A DNA stretch of 64,000 nucleotides from Marsupella aquatica (Eukaryota; Plantae; Marchantiophyta): positions 22,235,168 to 22,299,167 of the forward strand of contig OZ316892.1 of NCBI GenBank assembly GCA_973895155.1. The letters run 5' to 3'. The notes under the pieces were generated by a model, which had not been told where the DNA came from, did not search any database, and worked only from the letters and a program-made list of their open reading frames with translations. The position numbers and the translations under genes were made by a program. This document shows, one piece after another, positions 4,522 to 48,782 of the stretch (its first letter is position 1; the number at the start of each line of letters is the position of its first letter).

Positions 4522-6087
4522 CTGGAGGAGGCCGACATCGGAGCGGATAACGAGATACCAGTGGATTCCATATCCTCGCACGCTGCTCATGTTCTCTTGG
4601 AAGAATCGTAGACCTGCAATTCTAATTGAAGTTTCTGTTGGGTATTATCAATCTCTCGTCTCTTCTTCTCCATAGCATCCATTTGTAAGGGAGTTCCATT
4701 GTTCCGAATGTCGATTGCGAAATAGTAACCAAGTATCTGAGCCTCATGACTCTCAACGAGTCTCCTCCAAAGCAAGCGACATTCAGAACAACATTTTGAA
4801 ATGAATGCACAAGGGATAAGTACGGGTCCGCAAGGTCACTCATCAAAATTCCATATGATGTCTCGCTGATAGTGACAAAATCTAGGCAAGAGCTTGGCAA
4901 GGCTCGCTGAAGGAATTCTCAATAAAATTCAGCGGCCCCTCTGAGTATGAATTGTGTGCTCGGGGGTCTCACTATATGAGGACCTCCCCATCGCCTGCGA
5001 CGTTTTTAGGCCTCGGACCCCCTAAAATGTAAGAATTTTTTAAATTTTTTAACCCCTATAAAGTTGGAATATTCTTGGAATATTCTAAAAATTGGATTAA
5101 AAAGACCCTAATGTTCTTATAAGTCTCAAAATTGAATTTAAAAGACCCTATTGTTCTTCTACAAAAATTCTTAAGTCTTCCCTTAGAACCAATAAAATGA
5201 CCCTATCCTTTGTCGCACGTGATATGCCATTTTTGTGAAATAAAACCCCCGAGATTGTGTGCCTAAACATCTCCTGTCCAACGGACGGATGACAGTAGAG
5301 TAGACACCTCACTTAGAGTCAAAAAGGGCTGATGAATTAAATCATTCCGATCCAAGTCGCAGCCACAAAGTTTCCAAAAGCACCAGTAGAGATGTTTGCA
5401 TGGGTAGTAGGGTCCCGAAGAGGACTCCCGCGTTGTGAAATCGATACAAGAACAAGAGGGGAAGACACAAATCTGAATAAGATGGATCCCTTGTGTCCGC
5501 TGACTCTGTCAAGTCGAGACTTTTGCGCAGAGTCCTGTGGCATTCCCATCTTGAACCCAAAGTATTGAATCGTAGGACATCACTTCTTTCTTTGCTGAAT
5601 TCATCCTTTTTTGACCATCAGTCGAGGGACTCTCTTCGACGCCGAGTGTGCCCATTCTTGGTTTTTAGTCTCTCATCTGGATACGAGTGATGAATGTGTT
5701 TGGGATAACTATCAAGGTTAATCACAATGTGTGACGCCGCCGGTACGGCGGTTAATGAGTGATTCAGTCTAACTGCGCTCGGCACGCGCGTTAGGTGGGT
5801 CTTAGGCCGCTATTATTAGCATAATGACAGTATTTAGGTAATCATTAGGAGTAGGACATCATTAGGCAATAAAGGGGACTTCAGGTTCGGGCTGGCGGCG
5901 GGTCACTATTCGCACACCCGGGTTACGAGCGTGGAGGGGCCCCTCCCTCGGGTCCGTATAACGAACTTAAGGAAGCGGCCACTGACGCACGCTGACTCAG
6001 ACCGGCGGAGTGGCCGGTACACCACAAGCATGAGCGGTTCAACCTATGGGCGTCGAGGAGACGTCGGGGATCGACAAGCCCTCAAAG

Positions 6088-6094
6088 TATAAAA
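6088..6094 (+). promoter_or_regulatory. TATA box upstream of the LTR-internal ORF
   Basis: TATAAAA ~100 nt before the ATG at 6196, followed by a pyrimidine-rich leader. Conserved in copy A2. Confidence 0.6.
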
Positions 6095-6195
6095 GGGGAG
6101 CCAACCCTTTGTAGTGCACCAGTCCATCAGTCCGCGCGCCAGCTTCAACCCCAGCTCTCTCGTTCTCTCTAGGTCGCCACTACTATCTCCTCTGA

Positions 6196-8838
6196 ATGTC
6201 GCACACGATCCTCTCCAGCTCGGCCATTCGATTCTGGACGCAGTTCCTATCTACCGGAAGGCACTTGGCCGATTCATTGAAACACGCCAACCTGCGCCGA
6301 TACGAGATCGAACACAAATACGAGAGAGCCATCCGCCTAGCAGGACGACACCACTACGTCCTTAACTTTGACTACCCGTCTCAGAGCGAGCTTTACCGAC
6401 CAGCAGAGGTATCTGGGTACTTCTTCAACGGAGACAAATATATCGGGTTCTGGGAAGCATTGCTTTGGCTTCCGGACGAGGTCTTCAATATCCCGGGTAC
6501 AATCGACCTGCAGCGACATCACTTCGACCACATCCCTGCCCAGGTTCGGGTGGTCATTAACGGCGAGTCCAGTACCAACCGTTCGACAAGGGCGTCCGCA
6601 CTCGCTTCGGAGAACTTCTACCAGCACCTACAGAGCTTCATGGGAACTCGGCCATCAACCAACATGACCAACTCAGCCGGACCCGTACCCGTACCCGTAC
6701 CCGTGCCCATGCAACCTCAGCTTCAGCTTCAGCCTCAGCCGCAGCCTAGCCAAACCCCACCACCTATCACCCAGCCAGCACAGCTACGCTCCGTCATCAA
6801 CGCTGTGGATCTTAGCGATGACGACGAGGCTACCCCACCCTTGACCAGGCGGCCCAGAGGAACAAGCGCTCGGGGGGCCGACACTATATCGTCCCCACCC
6901 CCTGCTCTGACCCCAGGAGCGGCCCCAGCAGACAACTTGGTGACCGTGGCCGCCCCGGGCCCGTTACCAACCGCAGTGGCACTCCCCAGGCCCGATCGGG
7001 AGGATGGGGAAGTATCACCTTCCCCGAGTCAGTCACGGGGAAAGAAGAGGAAGGAATCCGCCAGTGCATCCGGGTTACCGTTGGCCACGGTAGCCGTAGC
7101 CAAGGTAACGATGCATCGCATGGGGCAAAACGTTCACAGCAACATCCTCCATCCCAAGCATGCGGTGTACCTGAAGACTCAGGGATTTGAGCACCTCGCC
7201 TCTCTCCCCTGGAACACTTGCAGGTACTACGGGGAGGACATGACAGAATTCGTCAAGAATTATGACGACGTACGTCAACAGACTCGGCTGCGGGGAAGGA
7301 ATATGTCCCTCACAGAAGAACAGCTCAAGATGATCTTCGGGTTACCCGAAGGTGACCATCGAGTCGAATCACGGGCTCCCGGGGGCAAGGGGGCCAAGTA
7401 CCAATCTTCAAGTTTTCCCTCAGAGGGATCAGTAGACAACGGGTTCGTGATGAGGACCTGCCTCATGCCCGAGATAGCTGAGCGGCTAGAGTTCCAGAGG
7501 TACGCTCTCCACATGATGGAACCCCGGGGGGAGATCTCCGCCGCCCAGGTCATCCAGGTCGAGAACTATCGACCTAGGAAATGGGCGTCGTACTTCGCTA
7601 AGAAATTCCATGAAGAGATGGAGCGGCGAAGGAAGACGCTGTACATTGGTGGGAAGGCGTATTTCGCTAGCCACATCAAAATCATTCTTGAGTGGTACGC
7701 CCGGTTTGATCGACGAACCCTTCCCCGCATCAACGTTACAAAGCTGGTCCCAGCTAGGTGGGTTTTTCCGGCATTGGAGAGACGGCCCCAACCCGAGGCC
7801 CGAAGTCCAGTGGACACGCCAGCTTCACCCACCCCACCTCCACAAATAGCTGTAATCGTAACCAAGGAGGCGTTGGAGGGGTCGGTCGTCGCAACCGTTG
7901 ATGCGACCCAACTAGCCGGGCTAAGTACAGAAGTTGGTATGGCAGAGGTCTTACCCGAACCCGGGTCTCCCAAGGACCCGCCGGTGGCAATTCCGGAGAA
8001 CCGGACATCGCTGCAGGAGGATACTCCGGCCCCTTCCAACGTTATGTCCCCAGGGCTGGACGTCACTGCCCCGGCCCCTGCGCGTGTTGATGTCTGCCCG
8101 TGCCCAAATCCGGACAGGCACAACTTGGACCACCCGGAACTCTTCGTATAGGGTACATTTCTGAACGGGCTTCTGGGAGATTTCTCTCATCAAATTGCCC
8201 GGGATACCGGGGAGTTCATGGCCCGGAAGGTAGCCTGTTTCTTCAATCAGGAGTTGGTTGCCGCCGTAAAGGCAGGTCGGGCCCAGTCGGAGGCCCTTCA
8301 GAGGATAGAGCGGTACCGGGTGGAGTCCGTGTACCTAAAGAACGAAGTGGCGGCTCAAGAGGCTGAGCTTCTGCAACTACGACCCAAGGTTGCAGCCGCC
8401 GATGAGTTGTTAGCAAAGGCGTACGCTCTTACCGCCCTAGCCGAACAGGCCAAAGCTGGGAACGAGGCCGAGATTACACGACTCCGGAACCAGATTGACA
8501 GTTTGAAGAAACAAGCTGTCACCTGGCAGAAAGACCTGGAGGAGGCCGAGGAGCGAGCCCAGCGGGACGCGACGGAGATAGCCACGCTGCAGGCCGAGAT
8601 GGCGCGGCTCCAAACCGAGGCCGAGAAGCAGGACCAGCTGGCGAGTAAACTGACGAGCGACGCCCAGCAGCTGGAGGAGGCATGTCAGGAGGCAGCAGAG
8701 GAGACGGACGCGGCGAGGCGAGAGAACGAATCTCTGCTGGACCAGGTCCAACTCCTCAAAGCGGACAATGACAGGCTTCGAAGGCAGCGGGATGGCCGTT
8801 CCCATTCGGGCGGCTCTGGCAAGCGTGCCAGGCATTAG
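6196..8838 (+). pseudogene. LTR-internal gene: N-terminal domain, plant-transposon-protein-like domain and C-terminal coiled coil; one premature stop
   Basis: ORFs 6196-8151 and 8218-8838 are in one frame, separated by TAG at 8149-8151. Copy A2 has CAG (Q) there and gives a 903-aa ORF. Confidence 0.85.
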
Positions 8839-9741
8839 CGGCGGAGTAGGAATAGATTAGGATTAGGATTGGCTTAGTCAGGCTCTTGGGACAGGCACCT
8901 GCCTTAGGTACGGCAGCGCTGCCCTGCTGTCCAGCCTGCGTAGATTAGGATCTTCTAATAAGACACAGCCGTTTTCCGGCCTGACTGTCAGCTTAGTTAG
9001 GACCTTGGTTAGCGAATCTTCGGCGGGAGGACACCCCGTTCCTCGGCTCTTAGTATTTAGTGCACCCCTCGGTAGAGGCAGGGGGGGTTTTTAGTTTCAG
9101 AGTCGGACATCCGTGGGACATGTGGGGAGTCCCGACCTCTGGGAATGACAGAGTACCAAGGGGAGGGGGTAGGACTAAGCTCGCCGGGCGAGTGCGGAGC
9201 CGGGCTCCGTTGTAGTGTGCACCCTTGGCCTTGAACCTGTGCATTCCAGGGCTGTCGTGTCAACTAAGTGTACGCATATGTTCCCTTTGTAGTAAAATCC
9301 TTTCCCATCATTTTTCCTTCGTGTAAATCGAGATGGTATGCATGTGTGCGCATATGTGTGTGGGTTTCTCGTATATGGGTGGCAGCGCCGGGCCGAACGC
9401 ACTACCCGAGACGTGCACAGGGTGCAGCCTGCGGGTAAGTGGTTGCGAGCACGGGTTGAGGACCTGTATCATCGAATCCGGATCGAAGGCGGACAGCACG
9501 AAGGCTTGGAAGCCCTTAAGCCGGGGTCGATCCTGCTATCGACTAAGGTACGTTCCGGCGGCGGAACACAAACCATACCTAGGAGGTGTCCGTATTTAGC
9601 AGTATGCGCACTTAGCGCTAGTTTACGAGAATAAGGTGCATTACGTGCTTCCCTTCCTACCCGAACCCTCAGATTTACGAGGGATGTGCCCATCTAAGCT
9701 GAAGTCTGAGTTAAGGCCGAAGCCTACGACGTGACACAATG

Positions 9742-23383: not shown

Positions 23384-24681
23384 GGTCCTTGCTAGCTAGT
23401 GTAACTTGGGATTAATCGCGTAGGACCCCTCCATATGTTTATTTTTACCGGCATTATATATATCATTGTTGTATTTCATGTTCCCTCTACTATGAAAGGG
23501 ACCAGATTTCTTAATAAAGTTATGAGTATTCGTTTTCCACACCATATCTGATACAATGAACATCGCATAATTGTCGAAAACATCTTACCTTAATTCCAAA
23601 ACCTTGTCCGATTCAGTCTGCATCGGACCCCTCTTAACAGTTATCGGATACTTGTCCGATACATTTCCGTTACTAATCTTATCGGAAGACATCCGATTCT
23701 AAAACTAACGGAAGGAAGGACCGTTTACATTTGCATCGGAAGGTTAACATGCGATTCAAAAAGAATGGCAAATTGCGTTACTATTGAAGTCGGACAATTC
23801 CGACGCATTTCCGATTTGTTTAGTGTCACGTCGTAGGCTTCGGCCTTAACTCAGACTTCAGCTTAGACGGGCACATCCCTCATAAATCTGAGGGTTCGGG
23901 CAGGAAGGGAAGCACGTAATGCACCTTATTCTCGTAAACTAGCGCTAAGTGCGCATACTGCTAAATACGGACACCTCCTAGGTATGGTTTGTGTTCCGCC
24001 GCTGGAACGTACCTTAGTCGATAGCAGGATCGACCCCGGCTTAAGGGCTTCTAAGCCTTCGTGCTGTCCGCCTTCGATCCGGATTCGATAATACAGGTCC
24101 TCAACCCGTGCTCGCAACCACTTACCCGCAGGCTGCACCCTGTGCACGTCTCGGGTAGTGCGTTCGGCCCGGCGCTGCCACCCATATACGAGAAACCCAC
24201 ACACATATGCGCACACATGCATACAATCTCGATTTACACGAAGGAAAAATGATGGGAAAGGATTTTACTACAAAGGGAACATATGCGTACACTTAGTTGA
24301 CACGACAGCCCTGGAATGCACAGGTTCAAGGCCAAGGGTGCACACTACAACGGAGCCCGGCTCCGCACTCGCCCGGCGAGCTTAGTCCTACCCCCTCCCC
24401 TTGGTACTCTGTCATTCCCAGAGGTCGGGACTCCCCGCATGTCCCGCGGATGTCCGACTCTGAAACTAAAAACCCCCCTGCCTCTACCGAGGGGTGCACT
24501 AAATACTAAGAGCCGAGGAACGGGGCGTCCTCCCGCCGAAGATTCGCTGACCAAGGTCCTAACTAAGCTGACAGTCAGGCCGGAAAATGGCTGTGTCTTA
24601 TTAGAAGATCCTAATCTACGCAGGCTGGACAGCACGGCAGTGCTGCTGCACCTAAGGCAGGTGCCTGTCCCAAGAGCCTGA

Positions 24682-27393
24682 CTAAGCCAATCCTAATCCT
24701 AATCTATTCCTACTCCACCGCAAATGCCTGGCACGCTTGCCAGAGCCACCCGAATGGGAACGGCCATCCCGCTGCCTTCGAAGCCTGTCATTGTCCGCTT
24801 TGAGGAGCTGGACCTGGTCTAGCAGAGATTTGTTCTCTCGCCTCGCCGCGTCCGTCTCCTCTGCTGCCTCCTGACATGCCTCCTCCAGCTGCTGGGCGTC
24901 GCTCGTCAGTTTACTCGCCAGCTGGTCCTGCTTCTCGGCCTCGGTTTGGAGCCGCGCCATCTCGGCCTGCAGCGTGGCTATCTCCGTCGCGTCCCGCTGG
25001 GCTCGCTCCTCGGCCTCCTCCAGGTCTTTCTGCCAGGTGACAGCTTGTTTCTTCAAACTGTCAATCTGGTTCCGGAGTCGTGTAATCTCGGCCTCGTTCC
25101 CAGCTTTGGCCTGTTCGGCTAGGGCGGTAAGAGCGTACGCCTTTGCTAACAACTCGTCGGCGGCTGCAACCTTGGGTCGTAGTTGCAGAAGCTCAGCCTC
25201 TTGAGCCGCCACTTCGTTCTTTAGGTACACGGACTCCACCCGGTACCGCTCTATCCTCTGAAGGGCCTCCGACTGGGCCCGACCTGCCTTTACGGCGGCA
25301 ACCAACTCCTGATTGAAGAAACAGGCTACCTTCCGGGCCATGAACTCCCCGGTATCCCGGGAAATTTGATGAGAGAAATCTCCCAGAAGCCCGTTCAGAA
25401 ACGTACCCTGTACGAAGAGTTCCGGGTGGTCCAAGTTGTGCCTGTCCGGATTTGGGCACGGGCAGACATCAACACGCGCAGGGGCCGGGGCAGTGACGTC
25501 CAGCCCTGGGGACATAACGTTGGAAGGGGCTGGAGTGTCCTCCTGCAGCGATGTCCGGTTCTCCGGAATTGCCACCGGCGGGTCCTTGGGAGACCCGGGT
25601 TCGGGTAAGACCTCTGCCGTACCAACTTCTGTACTTAGCCCGGCTAGTTGGTTCGCATCAACGGTTGCGACGACCGACCCCTCCGGCGCCTCCTCGGTTA
25701 CGTTTACTGCTATTTGTGGAGGTGGGGTGGGTGAAGCTGGCGTGTCCACTGGACTTCGGGCCTCGGGTTGGGGCCGTCTCTCCAATGCCGGAAAAACCCA
25801 CCTAGCTGGGACCAGCTTTGTAACGTTGATGCGGGGAAGGGTTCGTCGATCAAACCAGGCGTACCACTCCAGAATGATTTCAATGTGGCTAGCGAAATAC
25901 GCCTTCCCGCCAATGTACAGCGTCTTCCTTCGCCGCTCCATCTCTTCATGGAATTTCTTAGCGAAGTACGACGCCCATTTCCTAGGTCGATAGTTCTCGA
26001 CCTGGATGACCTGGGCGGCGGAGATCTCCCCCCGGGGTTCCATCATGTGGAGAGCGTACCTTTGGAACTCCAGCCACTCAGCTATCTCGGGCATGAGGCA
26101 GGTCCTCATCACGAACCCGTTGTCTACTGATCCCTCTGAGGGAAAACTTGAAGATTGGTACTTGGCCCCCTTGCCCCCGGGAGCCCGTGATTCGACTCGA
26201 TGGTCACCTTCGGGTAACCCGAAGATCATCTTGAGCCGTTCTTCTGTGAGGGACATATTCCTTCCCCGCAGCCGAGTCTGTTGACGTACGTCGTCATAAT
26301 TCTTGACGAATTCTGTCATGTCCTCCCCGTAGTACCTGCAAGTGTTCCAGGGGAGAGAGGCGAGGTGCTCAAATCCCTGAGTCTTCAGGTACACCGCATG
26401 CTTGGGATGGAGGATGTTGCTATGAACGTTTTCCCCCATCCGATGCATCGTTACCTTGGCTACGGCTACCGTGGCCAACGGTAACCCGGATGCACTGGCG
26501 GATTCCTTCCTCTTCTTTCCCCGTGACTGACTCGGGGAAGGTGATACTTCCCCATCCTCCCGATCGGGCCTGGGGAGTGCCACTGCGGTTGGTAATGGGC
26601 CCGGGGCGGCCATGGTCACCATGTTGTCTGCTGGGGCCGCTCCTGGGGTCAGAGCAGGGGGTGGGGACGATATAGTGTCGGCCCCCCGAGCGCTTGTTCC
26701 TCTGGGCCGCCTGGTCAAGGGTGGGGTAGCCTCATCGTCATCGCTAAGATCCACAGCGTTGATGATAGAGCGTACCTGTGCTGGCTGGGTGATAGGTGGT
26801 GGGGTTTGGCTAGGCTGCGGCTGAGGCTGAAGCTGAAGCTGAGGTTGCATGGGCACGGGTACGGGTACGGGTACGGGCACGGGTACGGGTACGGGTACGG
26901 GCACGGGCCCGGCTGAGTTGGTCATGTTGGTTGATGGCCGAGTTCCCAAGAAGCTCCGTAGGTGCTGGTAGAAGTTCTCCGAAGCGAGTGCGGACGCCCT
27001 TGTCGAACGGTTGGTACTGGACTCACCGTTAATGACAGCCCGAACCTGGGCAGGGATGTGGTCGAAGTGATGTCGCTGCAGGTCGATTGTACCCGGGATA
27101 TTGAAGACCTCGTCCGGAAGCCGAAGCAATGCTTCCCAGAACCCGATATATTTGTCTCCGTTGAAGAAGTACCCAGATACCTCAGCTGGTCGGTAAAGCT
27201 CGCTCTGAGACGGGTAGTCAAAGTTAAGGACGTAGTGGTGTCGTCCTGCTAGGCGGATGGCTCTCTCGTATTCGCGTTCGATCTCGTATCGGCGCGGGTT
27301 GGCGTGTTTCAATGAATCGGCCAAGTGCCTTCCGGTAGATAGGAACTGCGTCCAGAATCGAATGGCCAAGCTGGAGAGGATCGTGTGCGACAT
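24682..27393 (-). CDS. Intact 903-aa LTR-internal protein (N-terminal domain, Pro/Gln linker, plant-transposon-protein-like domain, coiled coil)
   Basis: Uninterrupted ORF; motif LPW...EFVKNY...RLRGRNMSLTEERLKMIFGLP.G; heptad-rich C-terminus. Confidence 0.85.
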   Translation of the reverse strand: MSHTILSSLAIRFWTQFLSTGRHLADSLKHANPRRYEIEREYERAIRLAGRHHYVLNFDYPSQSELYRPAEVSGYFFNGDKYIGFWEALLRLPDEVFNIPGTIDLQRHHFDHIPAQVRAVINGESSTNRSTRASALASENFYQHLRSFLGTRPSTNMTNSAGPVPVPVPVPVPVPVPVPVPMQPQLQLQPQPQPSQTPPPITQPAQVRSIINAVDLSDDDEATPPLTRRPRGTSARGADTISSPPPALTPGAAPADNMVTMAAPGPLPTAVALPRPDREDGEVSPSPSQSRGKKRKESASASGLPLATVAVAKVTMHRMGENVHSNILHPKHAVYLKTQGFEHLASLPWNTCRYYGEDMTEFVKNYDDVRQQTRLRGRNMSLTEERLKMIFGLPEGDHRVESRAPGGKGAKYQSSSFPSEGSVDNGFVMRTCLMPEIAEWLEFQRYALHMMEPRGEISAAQVIQVENYRPRKWASYFAKKFHEEMERRRKTLYIGGKAYFASHIEIILEWYAWFDRRTLPRINVTKLVPARWVFPALERRPQPEARSPVDTPASPTPPPQIAVNVTEEAPEGSVVATVDANQLAGLSTEVGTAEVLPEPGSPKDPPVAIPENRTSLQEDTPAPSNVMSPGLDVTAPAPARVDVCPCPNPDRHNLDHPELFVQGTFLNGLLGDFSHQISRDTGEFMARKVACFFNQELVAAVKAGRAQSEALQRIERYRVESVYLKNEVAAQEAELLQLRPKVAAADELLAKAYALTALAEQAKAGNEAEITRLRNQIDSLKKQAVTWQKDLEEAEERAQRDATEIATLQAEMARLQTEAEKQDQLASKLTSDAQQLEEACQEAAEETDAARRENKSLLDQVQLLKADNDRLRRQRDGRSHSGGSGKRARHLRWSRNRLGLGLA

Positions 27394-27494
27394 TCAGAGG
27401 AGATAGTAGTGGCAACCTAGAGAGAACGAGAGAGCTGGGGTCGAAGCTGGCGCGCGGACTGATGGACTGGTGCACTACAAAGGGTTGGCTCCCC

Positions 27495-27501
27495 TTTTAT
27501 A
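27495..27501 (-). promoter_or_regulatory. TATA box for the A2 LTR-internal ORF
   Basis: TATAAAA on the minus strand, at the same position as 6088-6094 in A1. Confidence 0.6.
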
Positions 27502-28207
27502 CTTTGAGGGCTTGTCGATCCCCGACGTCTCCTCGACGCCCATAGGTTGAACCGCTCACGCTTGTGGTGTACCGGCCACTCCGCCGGTCTGAGTCAGCGT
27601 GCGTCAGTGGCCGCTTCCTTAAGTTCGTTATACGGACCCGAGGGAGGGGCCCCTCCACGCTCGTAACCCGGGTGTGCGAATAGCGACCCGCCGCCAGCCC
27701 GAACCTGAAGTCGCCCTTATTGCCTAATGATGTCCTACCCCTAATGATTACCTAAATACTGTCGTTATGCTAATAATAGCGGCCTAAGACCCACCTAACG
27801 CGCGTGCCAAGCGCAGTTTAGACTGAATCACTCATTAACCGCCGTACCGGCGGCGTCACATTTAGTATCGGACGGCTGAGCTCTTGCAATATCGGAGCAT
27901 CGGAAAAATGCTAAAAATGTACTAGTGTAAGTAGATCCTATCCAACAAATGGAGCATGATGAATTCTTTAGATTTGGTCTCTCAGTTGCTCTATTAGTGA
28001 TGCATGTAGTTATTCCCTCAAGCGTTATCTCATCCATATGTAGTTTTTGTAACTGTCCTTTCCGAACTTGCTCGGTTTGACTGTGATCCTAGTATGGAAT
28101 AATCACGGTCAAACCAAGCTAGTATTTCTAGAAGTTAGAAGCACTAGTGACAATTGAACTCTGATATTCCCACTGCTGATTGAAGTGCATTGTTTGCGGG
28201 ATTTCAG

Positions 28208-29497: not shown

Positions 29498-31743
29498 CTT
29501 GACGCCGATGACATGGTCCTTATTCTATGATCTGATTAACTAGGTTGCTGTATGCAAGGAGTAGCTATTGATACTGCATAACAATTAGCAAGATGGCAAG
29601 AATAAGGGCAATCATGGCATTAAGAGTAGGGAAATAAAAGCTATGTCGTAGGTGGTCGGCGACCATATCTCTTTCAATATGTCACCAAATCCGGATTTGT
29701 AAAGAGCATTGGAAAGATCTGGTCAAGGCGAGTAAAATTGATATAAAACACTTGGGAAACGGAGGTGTATTAAGGAAGATACGGCCTGATTAGTGTGATG
29801 GGTTAACTTGTGGCCGAAATTAGCGGGTTCGGCTTCAGTTTCGGGTTAACCCAAGCTTGACCACGGCTTAGCTTATGTGAGCACGGCTTCAGCTTAGCTC
29901 AGGTAAGCACGGCTTCAGCTTAGCTCAGGTAAGAACGGCTTCAGCTTAGCTCAGGTCAGCATAGCTTCAGCTTAGCTCAGGTAAGCACGGCTTCAGCTTA
30001 GGCTTAACCCGGGTTCGGATTAGATTGATCCCGGGTTAGACTGAACTCGGGTTAGCCTAAACTTGGGCTCAAGTTAGCATAGGTAAGCTCGGGTTTGGGC
30101 TCAGCTTAGGCTAGGTTAGCGGATAGCGGATAGCGGGTAGCGGCCTAACCCGAGACCACGGGTTAGCTCTACTCGGGTTAGATAGGATAGCTAGGTTAGC
30201 CGAACTCGGGTTAGCTATGTAACTCGGGTTAGCGCAGCAGTGAGTACCCCCTCTCGGTTGCGGGGGCATAACTCTCTATGTATTTGACTAAATCGGCTAT
30301 AATTGACCTCGTTGGAAAGAGGAGCTCAAGCCACTTCCAACGTTGTTATCCACGCAGCAAATGGTTGAATAGAGAAATCGGGAGAGGAGGCGCAAGCTCG
30401 CAAAAACCATGGAGGAGGGCCAAATCCAAAGTACATAGCCAATTTGAGATAGAAATAAAGTTGCGAGTTAGGGTTCAGTAGTTAGAGATAGTGGCGGCTC
30501 TGTTAGGGCTGGGATGGGGCTCCAGTAGCGTAGCATCCACCCATTTGGGCTCAATGAGAAAGTATATAGAGCAGCCCTCCGGTAGAGGCAGGGGGAACTT
30601 CAGTTGTGTGATCTCACGTAGATTGAGCAGCAGAGAGGAGCTCTGTGCAAGGAAGGCTGGGCTTGGAAGCTGGGTGTTGGGGAGAGCTTGGTTGTGCTAT
30701 TACTCAGGGAGTAATCAGCCACGCTTCACAGCAACAGTTGGCCAGGTTTGCAAGCTGGATTGTGGCTCTTTCTAGTAGGCAACACAACTGGGTTCTTTTC
30801 CCCCGATACAGAGCCTTGGCGATAGGTGATGTATTGGTGATTGTAAACTGTGGGGAGGATTTCAATGTGATTTGCGGTGAGCACATTAGGGAGGCTGAGA
30901 TACTGATTGAGGGGCAGCAGGAGGAGCATTTACAGTTTAGTCTGGCAAGGCTACGTGATCCATGGGGAGTCCCGGCCTTTGTCTGGTGGAGAGCACTAAG
31001 GGATTTATGGCCAGGGATGAGCTTGCAGGGCAAGCGTGAGGCCGGGCCTCATTATAGTCTGGGGTAGATTGCCGTTAGGCCTGGTACCAGCTTTGAAGTC
31101 AAGTCAACTGTGCATGCATAACTTGACATTCTGAAATGGAGGTGTGAGATCTGTACGTGTCCCCAAGAATGAAGTGCAATGAAGGAGGTTGAGTTCAGGA
31201 TTGAGCTTGCATGGCAAGCATGGGGCTTGCGGGGCAAGCACGTCACAATCTGGAGGAGACAGCCTTCGGCCCTAGTGTTCAGATCAAGTGTTCTCAGTGA
31301 ACTATTGTGCACATCTTTGAATCTAATTGAGTTTTCCTCTCAGGCCTCATTTCTCTCATGGATGTGTGTGTGTGTGAGGCAATCTGAGTGTATGATGGGA
31401 CTAGCAGCGCCATTGAGACGTGTACAAGGTGCATTGAAGCGGGCTGGGTGAGGACTGTCATAGCTCTGATTGCTGAGAGTGGAATGGCAGAGTGGTGGGG
31501 CAATGGCTTAGAAGTCCCTAAGCCGGGAATCAGTCAGGAGTCACTGGTTTATGGGTACATTCCGGCGGCGGAATAGAAACATACCTATGATAGTGAGCAT
31601 ACGTATAGACCTATGCGCACCGTAGCGCTAGGCCCTGTGTGTACGGGCCCGATATGAAGACCCCTTCTCACCAGAACTATCATGAGCGCAGATCTGATCC
31701 CCAACCTTGGTTCCTTGGGATTGAGCTTGGGTGATGTGTGATA
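29498..31743 (+). mobile_element. Old degenerate LTR related to family A but without the large ORF (family D); boundaries uncertain
   Basis: 30561-30605 (AGTATATAGAGCAGCCCTCCGGTAGAGGCAGGGGG) matches A1 9052-9095. 31505-31630 matches A1 9503-9620. Possible decayed ends TGACGCC / GTGATA with flanks TAGTC / GAGTC. Confidence 0.5.
29881..30000 (+). repeat. 26-bp tandem repeat GCACGGCTTCAGCTTAGCTCAGGTAA (~4.6 copies), followed by CGGGTTAG motifs to ~30235
   Basis: Directly visible. Confidence 0.9.
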
Positions 31744-32659
31744 GAGTCTTGCTATGATAGTCTGGTGTTAAGGGCATAAATTGGTATTTCTCGGCCTTCA
31801 CAACATCCCTTCGTGATCCTCAGGTACAAGGAGATGGTTTTGGCACCCATAGTGACGTTTTTGGTGTTAAGACCCATGTCAATCGCGTGACAGTGAGTGT
31901 ATGGCACCTCTTTCTCATTGAGCAAGTCAGGACACATACACTCAAACTTTGTGTTCCTGTTATTTGATAACCACAGATGGTCAAAGTGGTGGACCTTGCC
32001 ACCCAGCGCCCTCACCAATCCCAGCACTCACGCCTAAGTGCCCCTAGTGCTTGAATGCCTCCACAAAATACCTTGAGCACAACCTTGTGCCTCTTGCATC
32101 GCCAACGGCCCCTCCCATACAAAGCCGCACTTGCTCTCCAACACGACCGCTACTCAATGGTCCTCACTGTCTGCACAAGCAACCAAGCACCTTGGTAAAT
32201 AACCCTTCAGGATCTAGAACTTGCCAAGTCTAGCATCCTAACTCAAGCTCAACAGACATTGGTAAATAGGTCAACAATAGGTCCTCCCGACGCCATGCCA
32301 TAAGCTGGAACCAGAACCCACACCCATTGTTCGTCTAGAACAACTCCTTCCTTGGGCGCGGTCCGGGTTCCTCCTTGTACCTATCCATCACCAGCTGACT
32401 ACCCTGACCCCAGTACATGCTCATGGCCCAAATAGCGTAGCTTGTTCTAAAGCTTGTCCCAACACGCCGGGACCAGAATGGCTCTGACTCTAGCAACCAA
32501 CTTATGGTTTGCCCCACTGATGGTCTAGGGGCCAAGCACCCTTGGAAGTCAACCTCCACACCTACTTGGCCTTGCCTCCCCAACGCAAGCTCCATTGGGA
32601 GATTGGACGTGGCTTGGCTGTTGTTCGACAGGATTTGGCAAGTGGGCGAGATAACACCC

Positions 32660-37913: not shown

Positions 37914-38834
37914 TGTGGTGCGTCCCATGGCTCCCTAAACCCAAGAAACCCCCCAGCTCAAGCCGATTCCCGCAGGTTTCGTGCTTGGCGAGGCCGTTTC
38001 CGCGGCTTAGCGGCATGGGACGCTGCTAACCTTCTACTACTACTATTAACATTTTACACACATATACTGGACAGATCCTTCATCGGGTCATGAGATACGT
38101 AGCCGGCCTAATATAGGCCTTCCCCTGTCTTCCCCTGTCTTCCCCTCCGTCTTGTTAGGTATGTTTGGATTCCGCCGCCGGAATGATCCCCAATAGGCTT
38201 GGTTAAGCCGCTAAGACCTCTCTCAGCTCGACACATCCAACTCTCACTCCCCTGCTTACTTTCCTTCCTTCTGTTGATGTGGGCACTCTTCACACAAGTT
38301 AATGCGACACACAAATAGCAAAATGACTCATTCTGACTGAGTCATACCATGCACTTGCCATACAAACAGTACATCTCATACACAAGTTCTGCGAACTAAG
38401 CCGTGAGGCCAACTCTATTCAGCTCTTAGGCATGAGGAAACATGAATATACACAAGGGTCACTGTATGACTAACCGAGAGCTTCTCGTACTACTTGATCC
38501 CAGCCCGGCTGGTGCAAACTAAAAACTTGCTAAAGAAGAGGCCCTGAGCTCCCCGCTGCCCAGGTACTTATCCTGGTAGTGGATCCGCCATTCTTTGCAT
38601 CGTAAGCCTAATCTACTTAACAGTAATCTACTTGCCCGAATCTACCTATGTACAGCAAGGCAGGAGCACAAGTGTTGCTCCTACCAGTGGGACCGCAATC
38701 CCACTAAGCTAAGTGTCAGGGCCGCTCCTGGTTCTGATCCTAATCCTAAACGTGGAGATCCGCGCCCGCCCTGCCCACTCACGCCTCCTCCCTCCACGTC
38801 CGCCTTCCCTAAAAGGAACGGCGCCCTTGCACCG

Positions 38835-41800
38835 TCACGACACCGGTGGTGGATCCTCAATGGACGCCCCCAACACTTCCTCCTCAGCCACTGCCGTTGG
38901 CCCGCCTACTGACAGATTACCTGCCCTTGACCGAGTCAACTCTCCATCGGCCTGACTGGGTCCACCTTCGGCTTCAGCCTCGACACCGGCCTCGGCAATA
39001 CCCACGGCTTCGGCCTCAGCCACTCCCACGGCTTCGGCTTCAGCCACTCCCTCGGCTTCGGCCTCAGCCACCCCCACGGCTTCGGCCTCCCCTTCCCCTA
39101 GGGTAGTTGGATCCTTAGCCGTGACCCTGTCTGGGGTCGGTGCTGGGTCTACCTCCTTGATCACCACGGCCTGTGAAGTCGTATTACTCCTTGACCCTGG
39201 AGGTTTCCGCTTCTTCTTCGTTGGTGGCTCGGCAGCTGGTCCCTTCCCCTTCCCACTTACTTCCGGCACTGGTGCAGTTGACGCGGCTTGTCCTTCGGCA
39301 ATTACCACCCCTGGTAACTGGTTTGTCCCAACGGGAGATGGACCTGCTACAGCTAAGCATTTAAATACTGCGGCTTGTTTCTTCAGCCGCTCTGTTTGGT
39401 TGTCGGCCCGCCGCTGTAGGTTCTCCATCTTCCTCGTGATTTCCTCCAACTCCTCTTGGGTTTCATCCAGGTCCTTACGTGCCCCCTCCAGCTCGTTTTT
39501 GGCCTCCTCCTGCTCCCTGTGGGCTTCCTCCAATTCCTTCTTCAAGGTAGCCCTCTCCTCCTGGGTTGCTCTTAGCTCCTTGTCGAGCTCTGCAATGATG
39601 ACAGACTCCATCTGGTTCATCTTGGCGTAAGTCTGTTCGAGCATCTCGTCCTTCTCCCTTAGGTCGGCCTTGAAGCTGGCCGTCAGGGACGCAAGCTCCT
39701 GCTGCAGCGCCATAATCCCTTGATAGGATTTCCCTAACTCGACCTCCTTCTGCTCAAGGGCTCCGCGGATTTTCTCGAGCTCCCCTTTCAACGCCCATTC
39801 CTTTCTTTGGGTCTCCGCCATGGCCCGGCTGTTGGCTGTTATGTGGGCCTCCTCTGTATTCTTCAGCTCTTGCTTCCACTTTTCCCTCTCTTTGATCGTG
39901 TCGGCCAACTCTTCCTGCGTCTGAGTCAGTTTATCCTTGATATTCTGATTATCAGCCTGCGCGGCGTCCAACTGCCCCTGCATGATGTTCAGCTCATGTT
40001 GTTTAATCCGCAGTTCATCTTGGGCTTTCTTGGCCGCCCTTAGATCTTCAATCTCGGCTCCCATCCTCCTAAGCCGCCGAATGACCTCGTCCTTCTTGCT
40101 TCTCTCTAAAGCCACCGCTTCTTCTAATTGGTGCTTCTCCAACTGCTCCCTATGGAAAAAGGGTCCTATCTCCAACTCCTCTCCAAAGATGCCGAGCGCA
40201 AGTTCCCCACACATCTCACCATACTCCATGGCTCTATTCTTAGCGTAGGTGGAGTAAGTAGAAGTGATCGGCATCGCCCATCGTGGCCTCTGCTCCCAAG
40301 CCGTCCTGCGGATCTCTTCAATCGTGGCTAGAGGTTTGCTTCCTTTTTCGGCTAGCCGCCTGATGTCCTCCGGCCAATCTCCTCCTGGTAAATCCTTTTC
40401 CTTAGCCAGGGCGGCCTCTTCCTCCTGCTTGATTCGCTCCTGAAATTCCTGCACCGTCTGTTTTATGCCGTCGAAGCTCGGGGGAGCAACATCTGGTGGG
40501 GGAGACTCAGGGCTACTCTGCTGGTTGGGGTCCCCTCGCACTACCCTTGGAAGTGTGGGGACAAACCGGCCACAGGTCCTTACTCCTGGAACGTGATGGT
40601 CCGACCCATAGCCGGAATTATCATGGCTGCAGTCCTCCACTGCCTCCTCTACCTCTTGGACGTCCGGCTTCTCCCTCTCCTCTTCGTCGGTAGGAGCTTC
40701 AGGCAATTCTGCCTCAGATTCGGAGCTTGAGGTTCCCACGTACATTCGAACACCTGGCTTGGATTCCGGCCTGATTCTCTCCTTGTCTCCAGCAAAGGGG
40801 TTTTCTCTTGTGAGCCGGTGTAGGCCTACCTCTGTAGTAGTGTCCTGCATTGTTGCCGTTGCCGTTGTTGTTGCCGATGTCGATTTCTTTTCTTTCTCCA
40901 GTAGTTTCAGCAGACTCTGCATGCCTGGTTGCTGCATCGGCAAGTCTTCCTTCCTGGGCCTAAACACCTGCTCGATCGTAGGACTAACAGGTGGTTGAGG
41001 CTTCTCAGCCAACGGCCTCGGCGTTGGAGCTTCCTCGGGTGCCCTTACCTGCAGGGGAAGTACCGGGGCAAAAGTCTGACCTCTGGCATACCGGCACAAC
41101 AGCGGCATGTGATAGCCAAGCCGCGACACGCTCCCCATGCCGATTACCTGCTGCTCCTCCTTTAAGATCTTCTTCAATTGGTTGAGGAGGTACCCGTTGT
41201 AGTCCCGGCTTGGGTCTGGCCTTTCTGCCAGATAGACCTGTGCCTTGCCGATCTCTGCCCTCGGCAAGTTACAATGCATGGTCACCCGCAAGAAGTCGAT
41301 CATCTCTCCTATGTGCGGGTTGGTGCAGGTGTTCCGGAAGAAGCCATTCTTCGTTGATGGCCCGGGGAACGACCGGAACTCCTTGTCAGGCAAGGTCTTC
41401 CTGGTATCAACTTTGGTCTTATTGCCTATCGGCAGGCCAAACACTTCGGCAATTACCTTGGGAGTAAGATAGAAATCCCTCCCATATATCCTCGTGCAAT
41501 TGGTCTCGGGTTCCCATGACCCCACGAATTCTAATAGGTCTGACTCCGGTACCTCCGGCTTCAGCCATGGTAATCTTACAAAGGCCTCCAAGCCGGATCC
41601 GGCCATGAAGCCTTGGTACTTCTTGGTCTGCATGGCCGTAAAGCATGCATCCTCCTCCCGTGCAAAATGTAGTTGCACCTCCACCGGTAGGGTTGCCGCC
41701 CAGCCCTTCCAGGTGTCATCCCTGGTTGGAATGGCCTTGATGGGATCGACCTCCTCCTCTTCGGCTTCTCCCTGCCTCCTGCTCTGCTGCTCGGCTGGCT

Positions 41801-42521
41801 TCTTTGGTGCCGCCGACCTCATTCTTTTTGCCGGGGTGGCTTCATCGTTGATGGCTCCCTTCCTCTTCATCTCTGCTGCCGTGGAGGTTTCTCCTAGCAA
41901 CGTTGCCTGGGTCCACCTTTCCGTGCTACCCTTTAATTCCCAGTGTATGTCGTTGCAGTTCTTGATGGCCTCTCGGATGCCGACGACGCTGTCTTTGCAA
42001 AACAGAAGATTGTCGAGTTGATTGGAAGTAGGCGTCCACAGGAACTCGTCGTTGATGAGTTCGCCTCCTAAGAAAGCCGTCTTCTGCAGCTCCCACAATC
42101 GAGCGAGCTCCTGCCGTTCTCGAGCTGCCCTTTCTGACTCCTCGTCCTCGTAAGTCTTGATGTACTCAGTTGCCCGTTCGAACAGGCATCCCCAGAAATG
42201 TGCCGCTTGATTGACGTTGCTCATACCCTCCTTAGGTTGATCGTCGGTATCAATTCTCTCCCCGAGTGCTTGCCTAAGCAGCTGACAGTAGTTGGCCTCC
42301 CGTAGTTGTCTGCCTAGTTCGTGCTCGCAAATGAGCCACCATCTCCTGCAAGCGCTCCTTACCCCTCTCCTCTGCCGGTCCTTCTTCCCGTTGATCCTTC
42401 CTAGCCGCCGACGCTTAACGCGCCCTAACCCTAATCGGGTTTTCACCCTCAGCCTTACCTCCGGCCTCTGCCCGGGTTCCATGGTTGCCCCTAATTGTTT
42501 ATATTTTCCTTGTTTTGTCAC
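38835..42521 (-). CDS. LTR-internal ORF of 1228 codons (likely start ATG 42224 or 42482); homologous to the family A LTR protein, with a long coiled coil
   Basis: Intact ORF wholly inside the LTR; motif LPW..EFVGSW...RIYGRDFYLTPKVIAEVFGLP.G; EAEAVGVA repeats at the C-terminus. Confidence 0.9.
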   Translation of the reverse strand: MTKQGKYKQLGATMEPGQRPEVRLRVKTRLGLGRVKRRRLGRINGKKDRQRRGVRSACRRWWLICEHELGRQLREANYCQLLRQALGERIDTDDQPKEGMSNVNQAAHFWGCLFERATEYIKTYEDEESERAARERQELARLWELQKTAFLGGELINDEFLWTPTSNQLDNLLFCKDSVVGIREAIKNCNDIHWELKGSTERWTQATLLGETSTAAEMKRKGAINDEATPAKRMRSAAPKKPAEQQSRRQGEAEEEEVDPIKAIPTRDDTWKGWAATLPVEVQLHFAREEDACFTAMQTKKYQGFMAGSGLEAFVRLPWLKPEVPESDLLEFVGSWEPETNCTRIYGRDFYLTPKVIAEVFGLPIGNKTKVDTRKTLPDKEFRSFPGPSTKNGFFRNTCTNPHIGEMIDFLRVTMHCNLPRAEIGKAQVYLAERPDPSRDYNGYLLNQLKKILKEEQQVIGMGSVSRLGYHMPLLCRYARGQTFAPVLPLQVRAPEEAPTPRPLAEKPQPPVSPTIEQVFRPRKEDLPMQQPGMQSLLKLLEKEKKSTSATTTATATMQDTTTEVGLHRLTRENPFAGDKERIRPESKPGVRMYVGTSSSESEAELPEAPTDEEEREKPDVQEVEEAVEDCSHDNSGYGSDHHVPGVRTCGRFVPTLPRVVRGDPNQQSSPESPPPDVAPPSFDGIKQTVQEFQERIKQEEEAALAKEKDLPGGDWPEDIRRLAEKGSKPLATIEEIRRTAWEQRPRWAMPITSTYSTYAKNRAMEYGEMCGELALGIFGEELEIGPFFHREQLEKHQLEEAVALERSKKDEVIRRLRRMGAEIEDLRAAKKAQDELRIKQHELNIMQGQLDAAQADNQNIKDKLTQTQEELADTIKEREKWKQELKNTEEAHITANSRAMAETQRKEWALKGELEKIRGALEQKEVELGKSYQGIMALQQELASLTASFKADLREKDEMLEQTYAKMNQMESVIIAELDKELRATQEERATLKKELEEAHREQEEAKNELEGARKDLDETQEELEEITRKMENLQRRADNQTERLKKQAAVFKCLAVAGPSPVGTNQLPGVVIAEGQAASTAPVPEVSGKGKGPAAEPPTKKKRKPPGSRSNTTSQAVVIKEVDPAPTPDRVTAKDPTTLGEGEAEAVGVAEAEAEGVAEAEAVGVAEAEAVGIAEAGVEAEAEGGPSQADGELTRSRAGNLSVGGPTAVAEEEVLGASIEDPPPVS
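42498..42503 (-). promoter_or_regulatory. Candidate TATA box for the LTR-internal gene
   Basis: TATAAA ~95 nt inside the LTR, conserved in both B LTRs, C1 (32754) and C2 (34226). Confidence 0.45.
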
Positions 42522-42585
42522 TATACTAAGGTGTTCCTAGGGTGCCTTCCTGCTTTACCCACTTAACCGGCCGAGTGATTCCTAT

Positions 42586-45500: not shown

Positions 45501-45852
45501 TCATACCTCCATAAACTGGGATCTCGGCTGGACTAGCCGAGTCGGTCCCTTCCTTGGTGTCCATAGATTGTCCCCTTACCGGTCTATTCGGTTTTGAATT
45601 AGTGGTCGGCTCCCCTTCCTGCCTTGGCTCTAGATCGTGTCTGTCCATCTCATCCACCTCTTGCTCCTGAGAGTTAGGCCGCTGTGCTCTCTCGGCTTCT
45701 AATAGGGCCTCAATTTGTTCTGCCCTCGTAATCGGCTTGTATGCCGATCCCTTGGTATTTAATTCCTTGCCGATGATCGATGGCGTTGTGGACCCCGTCG
45801 GCTCTGCCACAACGCCTGCAGAAAATCCACTGTCCCTGCTACTGCTCCCCAC
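42586..45852 (-). CDS. pol: Pol: reverse transcriptase, RNase H, integrase
   Basis: RT motifs DYRKLN, MPFGLCNAP and FIDDF; RNase H VDVS..YSTTEREAL; integrase HHCC zinc finger, WGIDYIGP, SDRGTHF and YHPKANGLTER. The stop codon lies inside the 3' LTR. Confidence 0.97.
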   Translation of the reverse strand: MGSSSRDSGFSAGVVAEPTGSTTPSIIGKELNTKGSAYKPITRAEQIEALLEAERAQRPNSQEQEVDEMDRHDLEPRQEGEPTTNSKPNRPVRGQSMDTKEGTDSASPAEIPVYGGMRLERLEAELDPNLKKQINMIQARQYRKLDLGEGRELNLGRNLAPELEKEISDLLIEFQDVFAWSHQDLKGVDPTLGEHRIDLMLGAKSFRQPIRRMNPKYSLLVKTEIDKLVEAGFITPVLHSDWVSPIVIVPKKAGPDGKPKIRVCQDYRKLNEATLKDHFPLPFTDMVLDMVASHELYSFMDGYSGYNQIRIRQEDQIKTAFITEWGIYVFNRMPFGLCNAPAMFQRLMVNIFHDYLRKFMEIFIDDFAVFGKASKHAKYLRKTFMRCREVGLKLHPDKCFFAVTEGVLLGHKVSRKGIEIDKGKLAVWLDIMQPKNIKDVRSFLGCIGYYRRFIKDFAKLALPLTNMLKAGADFEPTPERVTAVVELKQMLVEAPVMIAPDWNKDFHVFVDVSGFCIGSVLSQLDEKGRDHPIYFASRQLADAERNYSTTEREALGVIYSCKKFRHYLLGYKVIFHTDHESLKYLVNKPDLTGRVARWILLLQEFDYELRIKPGKLHANADFFSRITGKPATDCIDDRFPDEELFVVEIASTWYPEILQFLSTSRLQPGLSREQAAVFVRKVRQYQCIKGILHKHGINGTIQRCLEKREVKRVLRAMHGEEAGGHFAPVTTSKKILNAGYWWPTLHKDVYQFIKQCDPCQRAGGPRASTRHPLHPILPLAPFEKWGIDYIGPLKPLTHPRRNKYIILATDYATKWVEARPTTKDDAITTARFMYEQIFTRYGASLELVSDRGTHFLNDIISRLIEQYLVKHRPTTPYHPKANGLTERANGIIGKILNKTVAQNKLDWDDKLFAAVFAYNLAYKSTTGHTPFFLTFGQEALVPMQLEIPTFQVTIEERASAEESLKEREYRLEALEEARMISAERVEYRQNIMKQQYDKRLKVVSIHTGDLVLLYDSRYSRFPGKLYTRWLGPFRVTMMFPNGSVQLANITGEVYPVHIHYDRLKKYYMDEDEVVREDASQLSGELCDA
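42600..42611 (-). other. Polypurine tract (TAAGTGGGGAGC)
   Basis: Purine-rich tract 2 nt before the 3' LTR in element orientation. Confidence 0.75.
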
Positions 45853-48765: not shown

Positions 48766-48782
48766 CCCTCCATCTAGCGCCA
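48766..48782 (-). other. Primer-binding site, tRNA-Asn type
   Basis: TGGCGCTAGATGGAGGG 4 nt after the 5' LTR; complementary, with one mismatch, to the plant tRNA-Asn(GTT) 3' end CCCTCCTTCTAGCGCCA (tRNA sequence recalled, not searched). Confidence 0.8.

What the first reader, a model, noticed from the sequence alone, without database searches (positions are those of the whole stretch)
9503..9582. Conserved, covarying structured motif near the 3' end of three divergent LTR families
Seen at A1 9503-9582, D 31505-31588 and B 38155-38209 / 49028-49082 (minus strand). A GGCTT..AAGCC hairpin is followed by the invariant TTCCG-GCGG-CGGAA hairpin, closed by G-C in A and A-T in B and D. Then comes AA(C)CATACCTA, which can pair back (AGGTA/TACCT in A, ATGGGTA/TACCTAT in D). 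It always lies ~170-260 nt from the LTR end, while the flanks diverge. A2 has one stem-breaking G>A change. Inference: a U5 RNA element for packaging, dimerisation, primer activation or poly(A) control. The antisense strand reads AG|GTATG, so a conserved antisense splice donor is an alternative.
Basis: partly seen in the sequence, partly recalled or inferred. Interest (0 to 1): 0.7.

Follow-up and report, generated by a model that had tools for sequence, protein, structure and literature searches.

The report
Conserved RNA fold in giant LTRs
Three diverged copies of a plant jumping gene's unusually long end repeat keep the same short hairpin-forming sequence near their ends, which likely folds in the element's RNA and may help start its copying by pairing with the primer tRNA, and the end repeats themselves carry a protein gene predicted to fold like a known anti-silencing protein.

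Summary
The motif is real at the stated coordinates (five copies, three families). It lies in 4.0-4.7 kb LTRs of a Ty3 (Athila-like, bryophyte-related) retrotransposon, 154-241 nt from the LTR end. 'Covarying' is overstated for the core: 2 of 14 pairs change on both sides, no better than shuffles. An unreported middle hairpin in families A and D keeps 7 of 7 pairs through 8 substitutions, which supports RNA folding. A and D flanks are homologous; only B shares the 30-nt block alone. No Rfam family or ribozyme core matches, and 80 distant relatives lack it. Best reading (about 0.45): a leader element of the genomic RNA acting at packaging or priming. Its invariant arm could pair with the primer tRNA's freed 5' strand, but that fit has a 3% chance level and the tRNA was not retrieved. 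An antisense splice donor and a DNA palindrome remain open. Side finding: each LTR contains a 903-1233 aa ORF under purifying selection, whose shared domain is predicted to have the VANC21 fold (Z 8.1, next 2.0).

The parts
9503..9522 (+). P1 hairpin (GGCTT...AAGCC), family A copy A1
   Evidence: sequence; predicted pair probability 0.14-0.21 in A, 0.98-0.99 in D, 0.75-0.99 in B
9525..9544 (+).
   Evidence: 8 substitutions between A and D, 7 of 7 pairs kept, 3 changed on both sides
9546..9580 (+). P3: possible pair-back stem (9546-9550 with 9576-9580) enclosing an asymmetric A-rich internal loop and P4
   Evidence: well predicted only in D
9552..9567 (+). P4: near-invariant 6-bp hairpin with GCGG loop; 9552-9559 is the candidate tRNA-pairing site
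9570..9581 (+). conserved tail; on the minus strand it reads as a splice-donor-like site with the intron starting at 9578
23978..24057 (-). motif copy in solo LTR A2, with G>A at a CpG in the P4 stem (24003)
31505..31589 (+). motif copy in family D (P1, P2, P3, P4, tail)
38155..38209 (-). motif copy in the 3' LTR of element B (P1, P4, tail; no P2)
49028..49082 (-). motif copy in the 5' LTR of element B, core 275 nt upstream of the PBS
48765..48782 (-). primer binding site of element B, 4 nt after the 5' LTR end
   Evidence: sequence; the tRNA type (Asn) is recalled, not from a call
5730..9736 (+). solo LTR A1, 4007 bp, 5-bp target-site duplication
23824..27860 (-). solo LTR A2, 4037 bp, 5-bp target-site duplication; contains an open 903-aa ORF (27393-24682)
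37914..53470 (-). element B: two 4684-bp LTRs (53470-48787, 42597-37914; 20 differences), gag in two pieces around a stop (48713-45762), pol with RT, RNase H, integrase (45852-42586), 5-bp target-site duplication
38835..42536 (-). 1233-aa ORF lying wholly inside B's LTR (twin at 53409-49708); shared domain at about 41037-41699 predicted to have the VANC21 fold
30560..31802 (+). 3' part of LTR family D, homologous to A; boundaries not fixed

Best explanation
The block is a conserved sequence near the 3' end of giant Ty3 LTRs that likely folds in the 5' leader of the element's genomic RNA and likely acts at particle assembly and the start of reverse transcription, most probably as a hairpin-masked second contact for the primer tRNA. 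Shown: position in the LTR, conservation across three families, ability to form P1-P4, compensatory changes in P2. Inferred: the RNA starts upstream of the block and is polyadenylated upstream of it in the 3' LTR, so the block is U5 and sits on the genomic RNA ahead of the PBS. Proposed mechanism: when the tRNA's 3' 18 nt anneal to the PBS, its 5' acceptor strand (positions 1-8) is freed; it would invade P4 through the first two loop bases and pair 8 of 8 with the 5' arm, opening the hairpin, as the HIV-1 PAS is masked until priming. This would explain why P4 is invariant rather than covarying and why its closing pair only switches between two purines on the 5' side. The internal loop and tail would be the Gag nucleocapsid platform. 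About 0.45 for an RNA element at assembly or priming; about 0.25 for the tRNA step itself.
For: Conservation far beyond chance between LTRs whose encoded proteins share only 28% identity in one domain. P2 keeps 7 of 7 pairs through 8 substitutions: null 0.0015 at the flank transition fraction of 0.41, 0.11 if only transitions occur. Six helices of A and D pair at 43 of 44 positions on the sense strand and 36 of 44 on the antisense strand (helices were chosen on the sense strand). P4 pair probability is 0.93 or more in A and D in leader context; a 6-bp hairpin kept in all three families arose in 8 of 5000 column shuffles. All 24 acceptor strands compatible with B's PBS pair at 6-8 of 8 positions with the P4 arm in all four copies; 8 of 24 pair 8 of 8, best -10 to -11 kcal/mol against a hairpin of -4.9 to -7.8. 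Only 0.26% of all 8-mers pair fully at one homologous window. None of the 39 places in the 40 best-supported variant rows of family B falls in 48987-49067. Eleven contigs of one run match up to the tail's last base and then continue with another flank (loose end at 49028). Contacts between primer tRNA and RNA outside the PBS are documented for Ty1, Ty3, HIV-1, FIV and RSV (PMC5371799, PMC1865047, passages).
Against: Core covariation is not significant (102 of 500 shuffles), and one of its two two-sided pairs lies where P2 and P3 of A compete for the same bases. In B, P4 is predicted at only 0.02-0.40 and P3 at 0; in A, P1 and P3 are at 0.13-0.21. The tRNA fit arose in 155 of 5000 column shuffles (471 without the energy cut-off), a weaker signal than the antisense donor (13 of 5000). 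A site of that kind occurs somewhere in 12-21 of 30 shuffled 400-nt regions. None of 10 distant loci with another PBS type has the equivalent site. The real primer tRNA was not retrieved, and the PBS of families A and D is unknown (solo or truncated LTRs). A2's G>A, which improves the tRNA fit, is at a CpG, where 40 of 59 A1/A2 transitions fall. A variant breaking a P1 pair carries about 8% of contig depth in one run (49071). 63 of 103 variant rows were not shown, and for the pre-stated 49028-49067 the gap has P 0.11. The site is 275 nt from the PBS in B. The P2 register was chosen by eye.
Confidence: 0.45

Rival explanations
1. The block is a DNA site: the palindrome TTCCG-N4-CGGAA and the tail are bound by a host transcription factor or by the LTR's own encoded protein, whose shared domain is predicted to have the fold of the DNA-binding anti-silencing factor VANC21.
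For: The core is invariant including its spacer, as a protein site would be. The LTR-encoded domain matches VANC21 bound to DNA at Z 8.1, rmsd 4.3 over 205 residues, next hit Z 2.0 of 48,161 chains (Foldseek TMq 0.45 versus 0.18 or less, E 1.3). Palindromic CGG/CCG motifs are conserved LTR features of Sireviruses (PMC2829016, passages).
Against: VANC targets are short, arrayed at high density in one orientation and differ between families (PMC5735166, passages). This block is single-copy per LTR and identical between families whose proteins are 28% identical. P2 compensation and G-U pairs need RNA. Z near 8 is borderline by the tool's own note, and a shared fold shows no function.
Confidence: 0.2
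2. The tail is conserved as a 5' splice site (or U1 snRNP site) on an antisense transcript that starts near the LTR end; the hairpin lies just inside the intron and modulates it.
For: The minus strand reads AG|GTATG in all copies; the invariant bases cover about -3 to +5. It is the only such site on the antisense strand in A's last 700 nt and D's 1240 nt, and one of two in B. Such a site arose in 13 of 5000 column shuffles.
Against: It does not explain P1, P2 or the invariant P4. The antisense ORFs of A (7566-8186) and B (41473-42021, 38956-39630) lie at non-equivalent places relative to the shared domain. The pattern was chosen after seeing the sequence.
Confidence: 0.15
3. The block is an RNA element for transcript fate rather than replication: poly(A) control, splice-donor masking or nuclear export, possibly bound by the LTR-encoded protein in the manner of Tat-TAR or Rev-RRE.
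For: In A the pair-back stem would cover a sense donor-like site at 9548. Donor-like sites lie 50-70 nt upstream of P1 in A, D and B. TGTA-rich stretches, candidate poly(A) elements, lie 100-300 nt upstream. The LTR protein has basic stretches.
Against: B lacks the GU in the stem. D has six such donor-like sites in 1.3 kb, so the match is common. Both LTR copies are transcribed through this region before cleavage, so an element inside the LTR cannot easily tell them apart (inference).
Confidence: 0.1
4. The shared 30 nt are a recombination patch or chance survivor with no current function.
For: Only three related families are sampled. A2 carries a stem-breaking change; one contig in run X6 appears to lack the hairpin (loose end at 49009).
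Against: E 2e-5 and 2e-8 against otherwise unalignable flanks; same position in three families; a further flank joins at the same boundary; P2 compensation.
Confidence: 0.07
5. The block is a self-cleaving ribozyme, as in retrozyme LTRs.
For: D alone contains a 7-nt match to one loop-B strand of the hairpin ribozyme (motif recalled).
Against: No Rfam match overlaps the block at E up to 5-10. No hammerhead core lies in it. A and B lack the match.
Confidence: 0.03

Closest known systems
HIV-1 primer activation signal (PAS) (PMC1865047, passages read)
   Same: 8-nt site upstream of the PBS, able to pair with the primer tRNA outside its 3' 18 nt, masked by base pairing in the leader.
   Different: PAS pairs with the T-psi-C arm; here the fit is to the 5' acceptor strand. 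The site is 275 nt from the PBS, sits in its own hairpin and is untested.
FIV tRNA-Lys3 / genome interaction (Miller et al. 2001; only its title was seen, in the reference list of PMC5371799; that it involves the tRNA 5' end and the U5 inverted-repeat loop is recalled)
   Same: Precedent for the freed tRNA 5' end pairing with a U5 stem-loop.
   Different: As recalled, the FIV site is next to the PBS; the paper could not be read.
Ty1/Ty3 bipartite PBS, CYC5/CYC3, PAL sequences (PMC5371799, PMC4974528, passages)
   Same: LTR-retrotransposon RNA leader elements that contact the primer tRNA, Gag or a second genome.
   Different: They involve the T and D arms of initiator tRNA-Met or lie downstream of the PBS or in U3; no conserved long-range partner for the tail was found here.
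Sirevirus conserved LTR repeated motifs (PMC2829016, passages)
   Same: Short palindromic CGG/CCG motifs conserved in otherwise divergent plant LTRs.
   Different: Those are multi-copy, upstream of the TATA box, in Ty1/copia; this is single-copy, near the LTR end, flanked by further hairpins, in Ty3.
VANC21 and its DNA targets (PMC5735166, PMC13547354, passages; PDB 9lnk)
   Same: The LTR-encoded domain is predicted to share the fold; the protein also has a long predicted coiled-coil-like stretch (weak Pfam hits).
   Different: VANC is encoded by Mutator-like DNA transposons; its targets are dense, oriented, family-specific arrays, which this block is not.
Athila / OTA non-chromovirus Ty3 elements (PMC6317226, passages and supplement 3 read)
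   Same: RT-RH-INT order, no extra RNase H or chromodomain detected, 5-bp duplication, extra ORF, LTRs up to about 5 kb.
   Different: [quoted passage not shown]

Membership tests
Primer activation signal (HIV-1 PAS type) | Lies in the leader upstream of the PBS | tested here: met
   In B the site starts 275 nt upstream of the PBS; that it is transcribed into the leader is inferred
Primer activation signal (HIV-1 PAS type) | Complementary to the primer tRNA outside the PBS-bound part | tested here: inconclusive
   8 of 24 PBS-compatible acceptor strands pair 8 of 8; null 155 of 5000; real tRNA not retrieved
Primer activation signal (HIV-1 PAS type) | Partner is the T-psi-C arm | tested here: not met
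   Sites complementary to the T-stem strand implied by the PBS occur only at non-equivalent places outside the block
Primer activation signal (HIV-1 PAS type) | Masked by base pairing in the leader | tested here: inconclusive
   P4 predicted at 0.93 or more in A and D, 0.02-0.40 in B
Primer activation signal (HIV-1 PAS type) | Stimulates tRNA-primed initiation and co-adapts with the PBS | not testable with these tools
   Needs a priming assay; A and D have no PBS in the window
Self-cleaving ribozyme (hammerhead, hairpin and other Rfam families) | Catalytic core sequence and match to a family model | tested here: not met
   No Rfam match on the block; no hammerhead core in it, one hairpin loop-B strand in D only
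VANC-type DNA target | Short motif arrayed at high density in one orientation | tested here: not met
   One copy per LTR
VANC-type DNA target | Motif differs between families along with the protein | tested here: not met
   Identical core in families whose domains are 28% identical
VANC / MAIN-like protein (the LTR ORF) | Shared fold | tested here: inconclusive
   Model pLDDT 90; Z 8.1, rmsd 4.3, 205 aligned, 8% identity, next Z 2.0; Foldseek E 1.3; no sequence-level match
VANC / MAIN-like protein (the LTR ORF) | Sequence-specific DNA binding and demethylation of its own element | not testable with these tools
   Needs binding and methylation assays
Sirevirus repeated motif | High copy number upstream of the TATA box | tested here: not met
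   Single copy, downstream of every canonical TATA found in A and D
Athila (OTA) lineage | RT-RH-INT without extra RNase H or chromodomain; 5-bp duplication | tested here: met
   against the table
Athila (OTA) lineage | PBS for tRNA-Asp, Asn or Ala | tested here: inconclusive
   PBS sequence shown; its assignment to Asn is recalled, no call confirmed it
Athila (OTA) lineage | Placement in the RT tree | not tested
   No tree with labelled references was built

The most novel reading that the evidence does not exclude
Each giant LTR is a self-contained regulatory cassette: it expresses its own VANC-fold protein from a promoter at its 5' end, even as a solo LTR, and the conserved block at its 3' end is that protein's target or a tRNA-opened switch, giving a plant retrotransposon a Tat/TAR-like or anti-silencing circuit that travels with every LTR.
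Probability: 0.13. Interest if true: 0.8.

Novelty: new variant of a known kind. Interest (0 to 1): 0.52.

Why it matters
Cis-acting RNA elements for packaging and priming are mapped in yeast Ty elements and retroviruses; four paper searches here turned up none for plant Athila-type elements. A 30-nt block shared by families whose LTRs are otherwise unalignable is a small, directly testable candidate. If the tRNA step holds, it adds a masked contact with the freed 5' acceptor strand to the known modes of primer control. The side finding matters separately: the function of extra ORFs in plant Ty3 elements is described as unknown (PMC6317226, PMC11963269, passages), and a VANC-like fold in an ORF carried inside the LTR gives a concrete hypothesis, anti-silencing.

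Tried and rejected
No whole genome is held, so no genome-wide model. Rfam: 3 weak matches in the window, none on the block; none on it in close-up scans. Exact motif pattern: 0 hits in metagenome contigs; a looser pattern gave 11 viral-contig hits that match only the core and score E 0.39-1.8 against the window profile (10 of 11 listed), treated as chance. They are distant, so this does not bound the motif's range among close families. No relative in viral contigs. Primer tRNA: no gene in the window, no hit in viral or prokaryote contigs; a maize small RNA in PMC4802599 begins, after one extra base, with the best-fitting 8-mer but is not labelled a tRNA there (passage). No RNA holder listed among 13 runs: no evidence either way on expression or splicing. 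Variation among family-A copies could not be read, so that check is open. TATA-like sequences downstream of the block in B are rejected as promoters: about 60% of contig depth differs at 48986 and over 99% at 48930 in the two deep runs. Hairpin-ribozyme resemblance rejected (D only). No conserved long-range partner for the tail. An 8-nt palindrome at 9613 and 31623 is shared by A and D but absent in B. Word-index search for LTR-ORF relatives found none; the profile search found 72. ESM Atlas did not answer. Papers not held: Miller 2001, Sasaki 2022, Tanaka 2026. Supplement 1 of PMC6317226 (per-element PBS table) was too large to read and may name the tRNA.

Full report
Setting. The window is plant repeat DNA with CACTA-type genes and a Ty3 retrotransposon. 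The nearest named relatives of its RT-RNase H region are liverwort proteins (Calypogeia fissa 68%, Riccia 58-59%, best 120 of 6069 listed). No genome is held. Self-comparison and end inspection give solo LTR A1 (5730-9736, +), solo LTR A2 (27860-23824, -), full element B (53470-37914, -; two 4684-bp LTRs with 20 differences, PBS at 48782-48765, gag, pol), each with a 5-bp target-site duplication; a relative C into which B inserted and which ends before the motif; and D, an LTR 3' part homologous to A whose ends could not be fixed.

Observation. The hairpin core is present five times (0.30 expected). A covariance model from four copies finds those five and nothing else below E 0.8 in the window. 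A and D share 6 colinear blocks, so their flanks are homologous. B shares with them only the 29-30 nt core and tail, at E 2e-5 and 2e-8. The motif ends 154 nt (A) and 241 nt (B) before the LTR end.

Structure. Four helices can be drawn: P1 (GGCTT/AAGCC), P2 (A and D only), P3 (pair-back) and P4 (core). On the core alignment, 49 of 56 cells pair, but only 2 of 14 pairs change on both sides, which 102 of 500 shuffles reach. Isolated folds have z of -0.88, -2.17 and -1.43. Sense pairing exceeds antisense pairing 43 to 36 of 44.

Variation among copies. Assembled contigs of four public runs were laid on B's LTR end (4 of 13 listed runs). Of 103 variant rows 40 were shown; none of their 39 places lies in 48987-49067 (P 0.009 for that gap, 0.11 for the pre-stated 49028-49067). 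One variant breaks a P1 pair at about 8% of depth in one run. Eleven contigs share the block to the last base of the tail and then run on with another flank. The same check for family A could not be made. Outside this genome the block was not found: 0 exact hits in metagenome contigs, and none in 80 distant relatives.

Mechanism. The core is conserved in sequence, not just in pairing, so it must be read by something. B's PBS implies the primer tRNA's 3' acceptor strand and so limits its 5' strand to 24 possibilities; all pair at 6-8 of 8 positions with the P4 5' arm plus two loop bases in all four copies, and 8 pair fully. That strand is freed when the tRNA anneals to the PBS (established knowledge). 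This would give a masked second tRNA contact like the HIV-1 PAS (PMC1865047, passages), with precedents in Ty1, Ty3, FIV and RSV (PMC5371799, PMC4974528, passages). The fit is suggestive only: 155 of 5000 column shuffles reach it, against 8 for the hairpin and 13 for the antisense donor; 0 of 10 distant loci with another PBS type show an equivalent; the tRNA was not retrieved, its identity as Asn is recalled, and A and D have no PBS here. A2's G>A improves the fit but sits at a CpG, where 40 of 59 transitions fall. I therefore commit to an RNA leader element acting at assembly or priming (0.45), with the tRNA step at about 0.25. FIV packaging work shows that short unpaired leader motifs can be Gag sites (PMC10726167, passages), which is the likely role of the internal loop and tail if the tRNA step fails.

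Rivals. The antisense donor remains open (0.15): it fits the tail well but explains no hairpin, and no equivalent antisense ORF exists in A and B. A DNA site (0.2) gained weight from the side finding below, but fails the two VANC-target features tested (PMC5735166, passages) and the Sirevirus multi-copy feature (PMC2829016, passages). A ribozyme has no support.

Side finding. Each LTR contains a long sense ORF: 903 aa in A2 (split by a stop in A1), 1233 aa in both B LTRs. B's pol stop codon lies 11 nt inside the 3' LTR, so the extra ORF that Athila elements carry after pol and express by splicing (PMC7197481, passages) is here inside the LTR. A and B share one domain (28%, E 1e-19). B against C shows 276 third-position changes against 147 and 130, and 46 synonymous to 15 non-synonymous single-change codons in the domain. 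A profile finds 72 relatives, 4 of 10 looked up being Calypogeia proteins; 5 of 47 aligned members hit Transposase_32 below its curated cut-off. The domain folds at pLDDT 90 and its only clear structural match is VANC21 on DNA (Z 8.1, rmsd 4.3, 205 residues; next Z 2.0; Foldseek E 1.3). VANC resembles the host factor MAIN (PMC13547354, passages), so the fold alone does not show anti-silencing. Canonical TATA boxes lie upstream of the ORF in A (6088) and B (53376), so the RNA start may be near the LTR's 5' end or there may be two promoters; either way the block lies upstream of the PBS on the sense strand.

Literature seen. Passages: PMC12885004, PMC3485330, PMC6431247, PMC4802599, PMC5371799, PMC2829016, PMC7197481, PMC4974528, PMC1865047, PMC11963269, PMC10726167, PMC13547354, PMC5735166; passages plus supplement 3: PMC6317226. 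Searches for a described element or an ORF inside a plant LTR listed none; the library lacks most subscription papers.

Verdict. A real, selected, undescribed cis element of a known general kind, with moderate evidence for RNA structure and an attractive but unproven tRNA mechanism, in LTRs that are themselves unusual. Novelty: new variant of a known kind. Interest 0.52.

Noticed in passing
window 38835-42536(-), 49708-53409(-), 24682-27393(-), 6196-8838(+): Long ORF inside the LTR, under purifying selection, with a domain predicted to have the VANC21 fold and a coiled-coil-like C-terminal part; carried by solo LTRs.
   Followed up: yes
window 5791-5862 and 8857-8997; 49484-49685(-): TTAGG occurs 10 times on the sense strand and never on the antisense strand in A's non-coding parts (B 7 to 2, D 6 to 3), clustered on both sides of the ORF; a better candidate for an oriented VANC-type target than the hairpin, though its longer words do not exceed the shuffle maximum.
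   Followed up: partly
window 9052-9085 and 30561-30595: A and D share a TATA-like sequence followed by a G+C-rich inverted repeat (31 of 35 identical); possible second promoter for the genomic RNA.
   Followed up: partly
window 9605-9620 and 31614-31630: A and D share two short palindromes downstream of the motif; one contains 6 nt complementary to B's PBS; absent in B. Possible dimerisation or PBS-masking site.
   Followed up: partly
window 48703-48727(-): Just after B's PBS a donor-like site sits in a predicted hairpin, recalling the HIV splice-donor hairpin.
   Followed up: no
window 32660-37918 and 53471-54015: Element C, 83-88% identical to B's LTR, has a duplicated first 1.47 kb, was hit by B's insertion and is cut off before the motif.
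   Followed up: partly
window 49009 (run X6): One contig's loose end reads like a copy in which the 13-nt hairpin core is cleanly deleted; single contig, may be a library junction.
   Followed up: no
window 21381-23383 and 61712-62518: CACTA-type transposase pieces (Transposase_21, DUF4218, DUF4216) and a Ulp1-type protease ORF.
   Followed up: no
window 1253-3480, 13444-13863, 29063-29367, 58947-59104: Tandem arrays with units of about 408, 81-90, 21 and 44 nt.
   Followed up: no
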